Assembly: GCF_963676685.1 (NCBI RefSeq)
Contig: NC_092355.1
Location: 18,042,001-18,106,000 of the forward strand
Length of the DNA stretch: 64,000 bases
From: Mytilus edulis
Lineage: Eukaryota
Direction: 5' to 3'
Made by a program: the position numbers. How positions within the stretch are numbered: position 1 is the first letter of the stretch; every line of letters starts with the position of its first letter. This document shows, piece after piece, positions 43,001 to 46,000 of the stretch.

Positions 43001-46000
43001 GAATATTAAGCTTCTCAGTGATCCAAATAAGTTTTTGTCAAACTGCTATATAACCAGTGTAATTTTTCCGATAAAACGGTTGGTTCAAATTTTTTGAAAT
43101 TTTTATATTTTTGTAAAAGGGTCAAAGTAAATACTTTGTCAAAATTTTAAGAAACGAGCCAAATTAATTTTAGTTAATTTAGTGTTGGGTACCACCTTAA
43201 ATATTAACAGTGATTGATGGTTTACCCAGGATAATCTGGTGTATGGTTAGCCATGATATTATACAAGTATTCAGAAAGTAACTGGCAGAAGAAACCAAAG
43301 AGACAACCAAAACTCTTGTTTTACAAAAACCAACAATACCACTGCAAAATAGGAAATAAAAAATCAGACAGACAACATCAATGAATATTATACAAAACAC
43401 AACTTTCCAAAATCTTCATTTATGGATATTATGAAATGAAATGAATGCATGGTTCTTTCCTATGTCACTTTGTTTCTTTACAGGCCTCTTTGGCCGAGTG
43501 GTGTAAGAAGGTTATCTATAGCTTGGCTTCGATCTCTTCTTTACAGGCCTCTTTGGCCGAGTGGTATAAGAAGGTTATCTATAGCTTGGCTTCGATCTCT
43601 TCTTTACAGGCCTCTTTGGCCGAGTGGTATAAGAAGGTTATCTATAGCTTGGCTTGGATCTCTTCTTTACAGGCCTCTTTGGCCGAGTGGTATAAGAAGG
43701 TTATCTATAGCTTGGCTTCGATCTCAATTGACTAATCATCTACTTCCAAAAAATTACATTAACCTGTATTTGTTACTCTTGGTCTTTCCAGTGCTTAACT
43801 TTGCCTAGCATTACACATTATTTTGTTCATTTGAATGTTCCTGGCGGTTGTTTCAGTTTTGAACTCTTGCCACAAGCTTACACATCCTGTTCATTTATTT
43901 GTATTGGCCTTAGCCATCACCTCAATTCTTAATTTAGCTAATACCTATTTTTGTCTTTCTTTCTTTTCCAATTATATCAGATTTCTATCATAATCTCTTT
44001 TCCTGTAACCATGACATTACTGTTTGCATGAATGTTCCAGTTTCTGCTTTCATCATCTTTGTTTGACATCTTTACAAATGCTGACTTCTGCTGGGATTCA
44101 CCTTTTCAGAATCTAATGCATTCTGGGTAATATTTTCAAAAGTATATCAAAACAATATGATTGGTCAAAATCATCATAAACAATGGAAATTCAACCAATT
44201 ACATGACTTTCTGATCTGAACAATGACATTACCCATAATCCTTTTAGATTCTGAAAGAGTGAATTTTATTCAATAATGATATATTTTCAACAAGGGTGAG
44301 TAGACTTATCAACAAAACGTCTCATTTATCTTAAATCAATGTTTTATATTTATGGATCATGAAAAATTAAATAAGATATTAAAAATTTCATGTAAAAAAC
44401 AGGACATACGTAGCCATGACCAAAAGATAAAAAACATGACATGAAAAGACAAACAGTCATACCACATCTTCTTTTTTTATAAGTATAGTGAACAAAGCAC
44501 TAAAAACACAAGATTGAGCAACATATACAACAAACCTCAACTAAAAGAAACACTGCCTCTGATATCAAATAAAAATATCCTCTTAAAATATTAAGTTTGG
44601 AAATCATTTTACAGATATGGTGAAAAAACTGAATGGAGGTATAAAAAAAACACTATATCATTTAAACCGAAAACACACACTCATTGGCAATATGATATTA
44701 TGAAAATTGTTAAAACTGGTTTTCACTGAAGACAGATATTGTATATCAGGTCATTTTCTTGTAGGCTTTATTTTTTTTTCTCTATAAAACAAGCAAGTTA
44801 TCTGCGCTTATATCTAATTAATAATTATCTAAAGTTCTTATTTAATTTTCCTTTGAAATGTTAAAATCAAAATCCTGTCCAATCTTATTGAGTTGAAATG
44901 CTCAAGAAAATAGCTGATATATAGTATTTACCACATGTGTATTTGGATATGGGATTACACATTTGAATATACAGTAATTGCAAATCACATTCAGATATTG
45001 CTTCAGCATACACTGTTTACTGCAAGTGGTTTTTTAAATCTATAATTTTATCAATTACATCTCTGTATAGGTAAGTGTCTGTTTTTGACATTGCTGTTAA
45101 ATATACATTCTTTTTCCAAAGGCTGCAACAAAAATACAGGCCAACTACAGAGGTCACCAGGCCAGAAAAGAGGTCAACGACTTAAAGACAAAGAAGGAAA
45201 CAGATGAAAAAAAGAAGAAAGAAGATGAGCTGAGAGCCAAAGCAGCCAAAGAGGAAAATCAAGCTGCAACAAAGATTCAGGCAGGTTTCCGCGGCCATCA
45301 GGCTCGCAAGGAAATCAACCAGAAAAAACAGGTACGTGATGTGAAAAATACAAAAGAAGACGCAGCTGCAATTAAAATTCAATCGAGTTATCGTGGTCAC
45401 AAAGCTCGAAAAGAAATTGCAGATAAAAAGGTAAAAAGAACAGAGAAGAATACAGAAGAAGAAGTTGCTGTTACGAAAATCCAGGCAGGATTCCGCGGAC
45501 ACAAAGCTCGGCAGGAAATAAATCAAAAGAAACAGCAAAGGACAGAAACGAAAAATGAAGAGGAGAAAGCTGCGACTAAAATACAAGCAGGATTCCGTGG
45601 AAATCAAGCGAGGAAAGAAATAGATCTAAAAAAGAAAGAAAAAGTAAAAAATGAAGAAGAAGAAAAAGCTGCAACAAAAATACAAGCTGGTTTCAGAGGA
45701 CACCAAGCAAGAAAAGAAGTGAAAAAGAAAAAGGTATTTTGTGATAATCATGATAAACAGTTGTCTAACAATTTACTTAATGTAGATGATCTTGCTGAAA
45801 ATGGTGAATTTAATGAACAAAGTGAAAGTACAAAATCTGTTAAAATATTAGCTCAAATAGAAAGTACAAATTCTCCTTCAATTTTAGATAAAAGTGAAAG
45901 TACAAAATCTCCCTCAAGGCTATCAAAAAGTGAAAGAACTAAATCTCATTTAAGTTTTTCAAAAAGCAATCTTTCAAGTCACAATGTTAATGATCAAATA

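What the first reader, a model, noticed from the sequence alone, without database searches (positions are those of the whole stretch)
45122..45739. In-frame donors after successive IQ units: tunable IQ number versus giant read-through
Seen: phase-0 donor-like sites CAG|gtacgt (45331), AAG|gtaaaa (45430) and AAG|gtattt (45733) follow the 2nd, 3rd and 6th IQ motifs. The sequence character changes abruptly after KKKK|VFCDN. Coding-like phase-0 exons exist downstream of the giant exon's stop (56852, 60964). Inference: this is a composite internal/terminal exon. Splicing would give proteins with 2-6 IQ motifs plus a Pro-rich tail, while read-through gives about 40 IQ motifs. The giant part may be a former intron that became coding.
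Basis: inference. Interest (0 to 1): 0.75.

Follow-up and report, generated by a model that had tools for sequence, protein, structure and literature searches.

The report
Spliceable giant IQ exon in mussel
A mussel doublecortin-family gene has an 8.8-kb coding exon packed with calmodulin-binding IQ motifs that splicing also cuts internally, so one gene can make proteins with none, two, eight or probably about forty IQ motifs.

Summary
The window is Mytilus DNA, not human. The finding lies in a doublecortin (DCX) plus IQ gene; its IQ exon is 95-99% identical to RefSeq models of three Mytilus species.

- **Donor sites.** Such sites are no denser here than in the rest of the open frame.
- **45733 is used.** 16 of 17 fetched models splice it to an acceptor at 50984, inside the giant frame. 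They then run from 51226 to 56852 or 61850, giving 8 IQ and a short tail.
- **45331 is used.** One M. californianus model joins it to the Pro-rich exon at 60964, giving 2 IQ plus the Pro-rich tail as predicted.
- **45430 has no support.**
- **The giant frame is coding.** The stretches annotated as introns have no in-frame stop and coding-type composition. They are 42-62% identical to an unnamed 2692-aa relative with the same C-terminus.
- **Origin.** The long form looks ancestral, not a former intron.
- **Open point.** Read-through transcripts could not be checked.

This is a very large exitron-like arrangement: a known mechanism in a new, incompletely annotated case.

The parts
5653..32922 (+). 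Upstream exons of the same gene (DCX domain 2 and linker). tblastn segments lie at 5653-5739, 13932-14075 or 14112-14246 (alternatives), 15999-16172, 26719-26793, 28326-28412, 29828-29971 and 32827-32922. A 12-codon cassette lies at 19447-19482. Boundaries are approximate.
   Evidence: tblastn of M. galloprovincialis isoforms against the window, 85-100% identity. Peptide look-up. Pfam finds DCX twice in P0137.
34076..34108 (+). Exon DERIRKEKQGK, phase 0/0, donor AAG|gtaagt. In the IQ-less isoforms it is joined directly to the Pro-rich exon at 60964.
   Evidence: junction ...KEKQGK|DSDASG in P0391, P0392 and P0241
40058..40537 (+). Cassette exon of 160 codons, Ser/Pro/Lys-rich, phase 0/0, donor CAG|gtagac. 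It is skipped in isoforms X24-X26.
45122..45733 (+). IQ exon as annotated in sister species: 204 codons, six IQ motifs, acceptor ...ttccaaag|GCT.
   Evidence: (95-99% identity to Mytilus models)
45329..45337 (+). In-frame donor CAG|GTACGT after IQ2 (last exon base 45331). The equivalent site is spliced to the Pro-rich exon in M. californianus isoform X5.
   Evidence: P0395. Q-V-[RS] sits at this position in 10 of 10 relatives.
45428..45436 (+). Donor-like AAG|GTAAAA after IQ3 (last exon base 45430). No evidence of use.
   Evidence: None of the 23 Mytilus models I read uses it. V is A in P0002.
45731..45739 (+). In-frame donor AAG|GTATTT after IQ6 (last exon base 45733). It is the 5' splice site of the annotated intron that ends at 50983.
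   Evidence: 16 of 17 fetched models read ...KKKK|TKRLDG.
45734..50983 (+). Part A: 5250 nt, or 1750 codons. It is annotated as an intron in sister species but is open in frame and coding-like (exitron-like). A regex finds 12 IQ motifs, and there are in-frame tandem repeats.
   Evidence: Stops per frame 0/119/254 and log10 P(no stop) = -65. 42% identity to P0002, rising to 65-69% over residues 701-1000. 791 of 813 residues identical to P0127, with no difference in residues 596-996. Repeat periods are all multiples of 3.
50984..51226 (+). Small exon of 81 codons inside the giant frame, with 2 IQ motifs. Acceptor gaatttcag|ACA with a weak pyrimidine tract (0.43); donor AAG|gtaaat.
   Evidence: present in 16 of 17 fetched models; 81.5% identical to P0002
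51227..53884 (+). Part B: 885 codons plus a stop at 53882-53884. It is annotated as intron in sister species but is open in frame. It holds 13 IQ motifs, seven R[FY]E[ED]PSP motifs and a conserved ...SPPEM C-terminus.
   Evidence: Stops per frame 0/44/105 and log10 P = -26. 62% identity to P0002, with the same last residues.
56852..56896 (+). Optional 15-codon exon SSVIANGKPNGIAHI, phase 0/0, donor ATA|gtaagt.
   Evidence: Present in the M. galloprovincialis and M. trossulus models and skipped in the three fetched M. californianus 8-IQ models.
60964..61590 (+). Alternative terminal coding exon: Pro-rich tail of 208 codons plus stop, with a 21-nt repeat x9. Acceptor ataatcacag|GAC; AATAAA at 61598.
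61850..61861 (+). Start of the other terminal exon, which encodes EAN plus stop. Acceptor ttctctag|GAA.
   Evidence: C-terminus ...IEAN or ...KEAN in the models

Best explanation
The finding lies in the 3' half of a Mytilus gene for a protein with two doublecortin (DCX) domains. RefSeq names the orthologue 'doublecortin domain-containing protein 2-like' or LOC143054256. This half of the gene is built from modules that all begin and end in phase 0.

The core is one very long coding exon, 45122-53884 (2920 codons), which encodes about 33-40 IQ motifs. The same exon carries working splice sites inside its coding sequence:
- Donor 45331, after IQ2, leads to the Pro-rich terminal exon at 60964.
- Donor 45733, after IQ6, pairs with an internal acceptor at 50984 and removes exactly 1750 codons.
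- Donor 51226 leads to 56852 or 61850.

The gene can therefore give a DCX head followed by:
- no IQ and a Pro-rich tail (DCDC2-like);
- 2 IQ and a Pro-rich tail;
- 8 IQ and a short tail;
- if the internal introns are kept, an array of about 40 IQ that ends in ...SPPEM.

Shown here: the sites, their phases, their use in orthologous RefSeq models, and the coding character and conservation of the stretches that can be spliced out.

Inferred: that the unspliced long mRNA and its protein are made in Mytilus. Also inferred, from the known properties of the DCX and IQ families, is that the function is to place a variable number of calmodulin or light-chain molecules on a microtubule-binding head.

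The long form is most likely ancestral, and the internal splice sites are old. The donor after IQ2 seems conserved across bivalves.
For: Identity of the gene. The IQ exon is 95-99% identical to 19 Mytilus protein clusters that carry DCX and IQ domains. Pfam finds two DCX stretches and eight IQ stretches in P0137.

Splice sites. 16 of 17 fetched models read ...KKKK|TKRLDG...KRIK|SSVIANG... or ...KRIK|EAN. These junctions map to 45733>50984, 51226>56852 and >61850, all with GT-AG ends. P0395 reads ...INQKKQ|ESDASG, which is 45331>60964. All the modules are phase 0/0.

Parts A and B are coding:
- They hold 0 in-frame stops, against 119/254 and 44/105 in the other two frames. The chance of this is about 1e-65 and 1e-26.
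- Composition by codon position matches the exons and not the introns.
- All 11 tandem-repeat rows inside the frame have periods that are multiples of 3.
- P0002 (2692 aa, unnamed) aligns along the whole length. Identity is 42% in part A, 62% in part B, and 65-87% in several 100-residue windows that lie outside the annotated exons. Its C-terminus is the same.
- Against the older M. galloprovincialis model P0127, which reads through 45733, part A is 791/813 identical. There is no difference in residues 596-996, and the only indel is in frame, 20 aa long.

Age of the arrangement:
- 10 of 10 relatives have Q-V-[RS] at the same offset after an early IQ motif. This is what CAG|GTN(A/C)GN reads as, and the triplet is otherwise rare, 0-3 times per protein.
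- 6 of 6 relatives end in ...[EQ]M after a last IQ motif.
- The Solemya velum model P0231 has two DCX domains and at least 17 IQ motifs in one 1963-aa protein.
Against: - No transcript data could be examined, so the long read-through mRNA is not shown.
- The search with residues 212-2927 found no Mytilus protein of 1609-5123 aa. Of the 120 listed hits, only P0002 (46%) exceeded 28% identity. Current RefSeq models of three Mytilus species therefore treat parts A and B as introns.
- P0127 may be an ab initio model.
- The junction 45331>60964 rests on one model in one of three species, 1 of 6 tail-bearing clusters.
- The splice evidence comes from sister species, not from the window's own transcripts.
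- The Q-V-[RS] pattern is seen only at protein level and could be a conserved peptide feature. The 10 relatives fall into about 5 independent groups.
- The non-IQ block of part A has no significant match beyond P0002 (E > 1).
- Similarity to the more distant relatives rests largely on the IQ repeats.
Confidence: 0.7

Rival explanations
1. Fossil exon. The giant exon was ancestral, but in Mytilus parts A and B are now plain introns. The open frame is a relic that has not yet decayed, and only the short forms (0, 2 or 8 IQ) are made.
For: No RefSeq-type Mytilus protein of 1609-5123 aa contains parts A or B. 16 of 17 fetched models splice them out. The first 300 residues of part A are poorly conserved, at 20-31% of all positions against P0002 and 16 differences in residues 248-482 against P0127.
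Against: The frame has zero stops in 2635 codons where about 200 are expected. Composition is codon-like. Only in-frame repeats and indels are seen. There is no amino-acid difference over residues 596-996 between the window and P0127. Several windows outside the annotated exons are 65-87% identical to P0002, as high as the annotated exons.
Confidence: 0.12
2. Separate nested product. Parts A and B are translated only from their own transcript, which starts inside the gene. The result is an IQ-only giant protein without the DCX head, not a read-through of the DCX mRNA.
For: The relatives P0002, P0029, P0093 and P0217 start at a methionine close to the early IQ motifs and have no DCX domain. They look like open-frame calls from contigs.
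Against: In the window the first methionine of the frame is residue 307. All six leading IQ motifs can therefore be reached only by splicing into 45122. The frame is continuous across all three annotated exon borders. P0127 and the Solemya model P0231 join DCX to the array.
Confidence: 0.1
3. The giant part was an intron that later became coding.
For: Sequence character changes sharply after 45733, and the region just downstream is poorly conserved and full of young tandem repeats.
Against: Long uninterrupted IQ arrays with a terminal IQ followed by [EQ]M occur in 6 of 6 relatives examined, including a Solemya model with DCX domains. P0002 is collinear over 87% of the query. The study that defined exitrons found that most derive from ancestral coding sequence (PMC4484396, passages read).
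Confidence: 0.04
4. The internal junctions in the gene models are artefacts, for example reverse-transcriptase template switching between IQ repeats. On this view the exon is simply one constitutive giant exon.
For: The region is repetitive, and questionable exitrons of this origin have been described (PMC8240250, abstract seen in the listing).
Against: All junctions have canonical GT-AG ends. They share no microhomology beyond the AG that ends both exon and intron. The same junctions appear in models of three species. The junction partners are not IQ-to-IQ repeats.
Confidence: 0.03

Closest known systems
Exitrons (exonic introns; Marquez et al. 2015, PMC4484396)
   Same: 45734-50983 lies wholly inside a protein-coding open frame. 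It has no in-frame stop, its length is a multiple of three, and its acceptor is weak. It probably derives from ancestral coding sequence. Splicing deletes an internal block of the protein without a frameshift.
   Different: At 5250 nt it is very long. [quoted passage not shown] Here the spliced form is the annotated one and the retained form is the unannotated one. Retention is not shown by transcripts. Part B is not an exitron in the strict sense, because its acceptors lie beyond the stop of the long frame.
ASPM: skipping of the giant IQ exon 18
   Same: A giant exon encodes a long array of IQ motifs. Alternative splicing yields a form with far fewer IQ repeats: isoform 2 lacks exon 18 (4.7 kb), and the full form has 81 IQ repeats (PMC10436222, passages). 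ASPM proteins are the commonest remote hits of the giant frame.
   Different: ASPM skips a whole exon, whereas here the splice sites lie inside the exon. The head is DCX, not the ASH and CH domains. Identity is only 21-28% over 12-29% of the query and rests on the IQ repeats. This is not an orthologue.
DCDC2 / DCDC2C-type doublecortin proteins
   Same: There are two N-terminal DCX domains. The IQ-less isoform is followed by a Pro-rich, low-complexity tail. RefSeq names the models 'doublecortin domain-containing protein 2-like' and '2C-like'.
   Different: The IQ modules are not part of the vertebrate proteins as I recall them; this was not tested here. The name comes from automatic annotation.
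Mollusc DCX plus IQ-array proteins (Solemya velum ScPMuIL_009150, P0231; models from Lymnaea, Physella, Biomphalaria and Bradybaena)
   Same: The architecture is the same: DCX domains followed by many IQ motifs, in proteins of 670-1963 aa.
   Different: These are annotated as single long proteins. Nothing is known here about their splicing. The gastropod sequences lack the Q-V-[RS] feature in the one I read for it (P0200).

Membership tests
Exitron (Marquez et al. 2015) | An intron with both splice sites inside one protein-coding exon and coding sequence on both sides | tested here: met
   Donor 45733 and acceptor 50984 both lie inside the frame 45101-53884, and IQ-coding sequence flanks both.
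Exitron (Marquez et al. 2015) | No stop codon in frame, so the retained form stays coding | tested here: met
   0 stops in 1750 codons, with about 143 expected.
Exitron (Marquez et al. 2015) | Length a multiple of three (the in-frame subclass) | tested here: met
   5250 nt, remainder 0 on division by 3.
Exitron (Marquez et al. 2015) | Both the spliced and the retained mRNA are observed | not testable with these tools
   The spliced form exists only as models of sister species. The retained form exists only as model P0127 and as conserved open frames. No reads were available.
Exitron (Marquez et al. 2015) | Splice signals weaker than those of ordinary introns | tested here: inconclusive
   The acceptor at 50984 has the lowest pyrimidine fraction of 7 acceptors, 0.43 against 0.57-0.79. 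The donors match 7-8 of 9 consensus positions, like the other donors. The sample is small and the score crude.
Composite internal/terminal exon | A poly(A) site downstream of the read-through stop is used as an alternative to the internal donors | not testable with these tools
   AATAAA is present at 54441 and 54592, but such hexamers occur 24 times in 10.2 kb. There are no 3'-end data.
IQ calmodulin-binding motif proteins (PF00612) | Matches to the IQ profile above the gathering score | tested here: met
   412 bits against a cut-off of 20.3. 17 stretches at E<=0.01 and 21 at E<=1.
Doublecortin family (PF03607) | DCX domains in the same protein | tested here: met
   Two DCX stretches in the orthologous model P0137. 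Its exons for DCX domain 2 map to the window at 85-100% identity. The DCX1 exons are not in the window.
ASPM / abnormal spindle | ASH (PF15780) and calponin-homology (PF00307) domains before the IQ array | tested here: not met
   Pfam finds only IQ in P0001, and DCX plus IQ in P0137. The ASPM hits carry PF00307 and PF15780; this gene does not.

The most novel reading that the evidence does not exclude
Current mussel annotations miss a DCX-headed protein of about 3,300 residues with about 40 calmodulin-binding sites. It would be made by keeping two 'introns' that are really conserved coding sequence, one of them a 5.25-kb in-frame exitron. The in-frame donor after the second IQ motif, read as Q-V-R or Q-V-S, has been kept across bivalves. 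This would make the switch between a DCDC2-like Pro-rich tail and a calmodulin array an ancient, regulated choice. It would let a microtubule-bound protein carry 0, 2, 8 or about 40 calmodulins.
Probability: 0.5. Interest if true: 0.55.

Novelty: new member of a known kind. Interest (0 to 1): 0.4.

Why it matters
The short isoforms are already in RefSeq for sister species, so that part is ordinary.

What is not in those models is about 2,600 codons of conserved coding sequence that sits in annotated introns. If it is expressed, mussel proteomes lack one of their largest calmodulin-binding proteins. The locus would also be an unusually large exitron, and a clear case for annotators, since pipelines that drop retained-intron forms can hide giant coding exons.

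Biologically, it offers a natural series of 0, 2, 8 and about 40 IQ motifs on one microtubule-binding head. That series could be used to ask what IQ number does, the same question raised by ASPM.

Tried and rejected
- **ASPM membership: rejected.** There are no ASH or CH domains, and the hits rest on the IQ repeats.
- **Donor strength as evidence: rejected.** Site density is about that of the rest of the frame.
- **Poly(A) hexamers: uninformative**.
- **Collinear homology with distant relatives by BLASTP.** The segments repeat at many offsets because of the IQ units, so collinearity could not be shown. The non-IQ block, residues 596-850, has no significant match outside P0002.
- **ESM Atlas look-alikes for residues 596-1000.** The best scores were 0.80-0.83, below the useful range, and gave no lead.
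- **The listing of cluster members.** It was meant to give accession numbers and the full isoform lists. It could not be made because the shared database was off. I therefore could not list isoforms X1-X7 of M. galloprovincialis; by length logic they should be at most about 875 aa.
- **Literature.**
  - 'doublecortin domain' + 'IQ motif' + 'mollusc': 52 papers hold at least 2 of the terms, and none of the 12 listed holds 'doublecortin domain'.
  - 'Mytilus' + 'alternative splicing' + 'giant exon': none of the 10 listed holds 'giant exon'.
  - I found nothing in print on this gene by these two searches.
- **Not used.**
  - Genome contigs holds bacteria and archaea only.
  - The phage, plasmid and E. 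coli collections are irrelevant here.
  - I had no eukaryote DNA from other species, so dN/dS and DNA-level checks of the splice sites in relatives were not possible.
  - Complex prediction and structure prediction were not needed for any claim.
- **Spliced models.** They were searched exon by exon. The joined step was left out.
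Full report
**What the window is.**
- The DNA is AT-rich, about 30% G+C, and holds no N.
- The translated IQ exon (45122-45733) is 99% identical to RefSeq proteins of Mytilus galloprovincialis ('uncharacterized protein LOC143054256', many isoforms). It is 98% identical to M. trossulus and 95% to M. californianus proteins named 'doublecortin domain-containing protein 2-like'.
- The window is therefore mussel DNA, not human.
- Pfam finds two DCX domains and eight IQ stretches in the orthologous isoform P0137.
- The exons of P0137 from DCX domain 2 onward map to the + strand of the window between 5653 and 45733.
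- The DCX1 exons are not in the window, so the gene starts upstream of base 1.

**Checking the observation.**
They follow IQ motifs 2, 3 and 6.
- The frame runs without a stop from 45101 to 53884, 2927 codons.
- A regex finds 33 IQ motifs, split 6 + 12 + 2 + 13. Six more IQxAY(K/R)K units can be read. Pfam sees 17-21 stretches.
- The downstream phase-0 exons at 56852 and 60964 exist.
- The donor-like sites are not remarkable by themselves. The giant frame holds 30 sites that match at least 7 of 9 consensus positions, 18 of them in phase 0. That is 3.4 per kb, against about 2 per kb in the introns, so three in 612 nt is about the expected number.
- The phase-0 bias follows from Lys-Val and Gln-Val codon pairs.

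**What the orthologous gene models show.** I searched exon by exon and left out the joined step.
- *The 8-IQ forms.* Of the 19 Mytilus clusters, I fetched 17.
  - Sixteen read ...ARKEVKKKK|TKRLDGKTEA...KEYKRIK| and then either SSVIANGKPNGIAHI-EAN (M. trossulus differs slightly) or directly EAN.
  - The peptide TKRLDG...KRIK is residues 1962-2042 of the giant frame. It corresponds to window 50984-51226, which has an acceptor (gaatttcag|ACA) and a donor (AAG|gtaaat).
  - The next exons are 56852-56896 and a terminal exon that begins at 61850.
  - So donor 45733 is real. Its partner, however, is an acceptor inside the giant frame, and the excised piece is 5250 nt, exactly 1750 codons.
  - The seventeenth protein, P0127, is an older partial M. 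galloprovincialis model. It reads straight through...KKKKVFCDN....
- *The Pro-rich exon.* A full HMMER scan and a word search with the exon at 60964 found six Mytilus clusters.
  - In five of them the tail follows ...KEKQGK, which is exon 34076-34108, and there is no IQ motif at all.
- In the sixth, M. californianus isoform X5 (P0395), it follows ...AGFRGHQARKEINQKKQ|.
- *Donor 45430.* No model I read uses it. In the relative P0002 its valine is an alanine.
- All the exons involved are phase 0/0, so any of these donors can join any of these acceptors in frame.

**Are the spliced-out stretches coding?** Part A is 45734-50983 and part B is 51227-53881.
- They hold no stop in frame, against 119/254 and 44/105 stops in the other two frames. 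From composition, the chance is about 1e-65 and 1e-26.
- Their codon-position composition resembles the exons and not the flat profile of the introns.
- All 11 tandem-repeat rows that lie inside the frame have periods that are multiples of three. Intron arrays have periods of 46, 112, 45, 29 and 23, among others.
- The search with residues 212-2927 found one close relative, P0002 (unnamed, 2692 aa, 46% identity, 87% coverage).
  - A global alignment gives 73% identity in the IQ exon, 42% in part A, 81.5% in the small exon and 62% in part B.
  - Windows of 65-87% identity lie outside the annotated exons: residues 701-1000 and 2043-2300, and the last 127 residues.
  - P0002 ends in ...GYLTQTREITSPPEM and the window frame ends in ...GYLTQNRNVQSPPEM.
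- Against P0127, part A is 791/813 identical, with no difference in residues 596-996. The single indel is in frame, 20 aa long, in the KENSQNLTL repeat.
- Together this is strong evidence that the whole frame is under protein-coding constraint.

**What speaks against the long form.**
- I could not examine any transcript.
- In the 1609-5123 aa length class, no Mytilus protein contains parts A or B. Of the 120 listed hits, only P0002 exceeded 28% identity. The RefSeq models of three species therefore treat these stretches as introns.

**Origin.**
The relatives argue for the reverse.
- Unnamed proteins of 1949-2069 aa (P0029, P0093, P0237 and the P0217 group) are long uninterrupted IQ arrays. So is the Solemya velum model P0231, which has two DCX domains and at least 17 IQ stretches.
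- All six relatives examined end in ...[EQ]M a few residues after a last IQ motif.
- All ten relatives have Q-V-R or Q-V-S at the same offset after an early IQ motif. The triplet occurs only 0-3 times elsewhere in each protein.
- Q-V-R/S is how CAG|GTN(A/C)GN reads in frame. Because M. californianus uses this site as a donor, I infer that the alternative donor after IQ2 is old. This rests on protein sequence only, and the ten relatives form about five independent groups.
- The non-IQ parts of part A have no significant match beyond P0002. BLAST segments to the distant relatives repeat at many offsets. Collinear homology of the whole array is therefore not proven.

**How it most likely works.**
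- The gene has a microtubule-binding DCX head. This role is inferred from the family.
- Splice-site choice inside and around one giant coding exon selects among alternative C-terminal halves:
  - a Pro-rich tail alone;
  - two IQ motifs plus the Pro-rich tail;
  - eight IQ motifs plus a short tail;
  - probably the full array of about 40 IQ motifs, when the internal introns are kept and the transcript ends after 53884.
- IQ motifs bind calmodulin or related light chains (established knowledge of PF00612). The isoforms would therefore differ in how many such molecules they hold.
- The acceptor at 50984 has the poorest pyrimidine tract of the seven acceptors, 0.43. This fits a site that is easily skipped.

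**Comparison with what is known.**
- The piece 45734-50983 meets the sequence criteria of an exitron: it lies inside a coding exon, has no stop and is a multiple of three in length (PMC4484396, passages read). Retention is unproven.
- The outcome, fewer IQ motifs through splicing of a giant IQ exon, parallels ASPM isoform 2, which lacks exon 18 (PMC10436222, passages read).
- The gene is not ASPM, because it has no ASH or CH domains.
- Two literature searches found nothing on DCX plus IQ proteins of molluscs or on this locus.

**Verdict.**
Two of the three donors are real and IQ number is set by splicing. The partners differ from those proposed for the main donor, the middle donor has no support, and the origin story is probably the wrong way round.
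- The mechanism is of a known kind. The unannotated conserved coding sequence of about 2,600 codons is the part worth following up.

Noticed in passing
window 13940-14074 and 14111-14245 (+): Two alternative 135-nt exons encode the same part of DCX domain 2; P0137 uses the first and P0138 the second. They lie only 36 nt apart (14075-14110). That gap is too short to be an intron, so the pair should be mutually exclusive by steric hindrance.
   Followed up: partly
upstream of window base 1 (not in the window): Orthologous isoforms have three different N-terminal versions of DCX domain 1 (MRNGNY..., MMSTRGSS..., MSHLSPLPP...). None is found in the window. The gene's 5' end, probably with alternative first exons, therefore lies outside it.
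   Followed up: partly
window 52979-53494 (+), residues 2627-2798 of P0001: A short motif R[FY]E[ED]PSP recurs seven times in the non-IQ C-terminal region and five times in P0002. It is a conserved linear motif of unknown role and contains a Ser-Pro site.
   Followed up: no
window 46362-46714, 48100-48522 and 49346-49525 (+): In-frame tandem repeats lie inside the giant frame: 30 nt x11.8 (KENSQNLTL units, two units fewer in P0127), 81 nt x3.8 (IQxAYKKHK units) and 75 nt x2.4. The array is still growing by unit duplication.
   Followed up: partly
window 61324-61513 (+): The Pro-rich exon holds a 21-nt repeat x9 (KPPxGDN). Copy number differs between Mytilus species; P0241 has more units than the window. 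The long antisense frames 60942-61586 and 61054-61659 (-) mirror this repeat and are not genes.
   Followed up: partly
window 40556-41102 and 43474-43725: Tandem arrays lie in the introns: 45 nt x9.4 just after the donor at 40537, and 63 nt x4 at 98% identity. They were not characterised.
   Followed up: no
C-termini of P0001, P0002, P0029, P0093, P0217, P0231 and P0237: All of these giant IQ proteins end in ...[EQ]M a few residues after a last IQ motif. This may be a conserved C-terminal signal.
   Followed up: no
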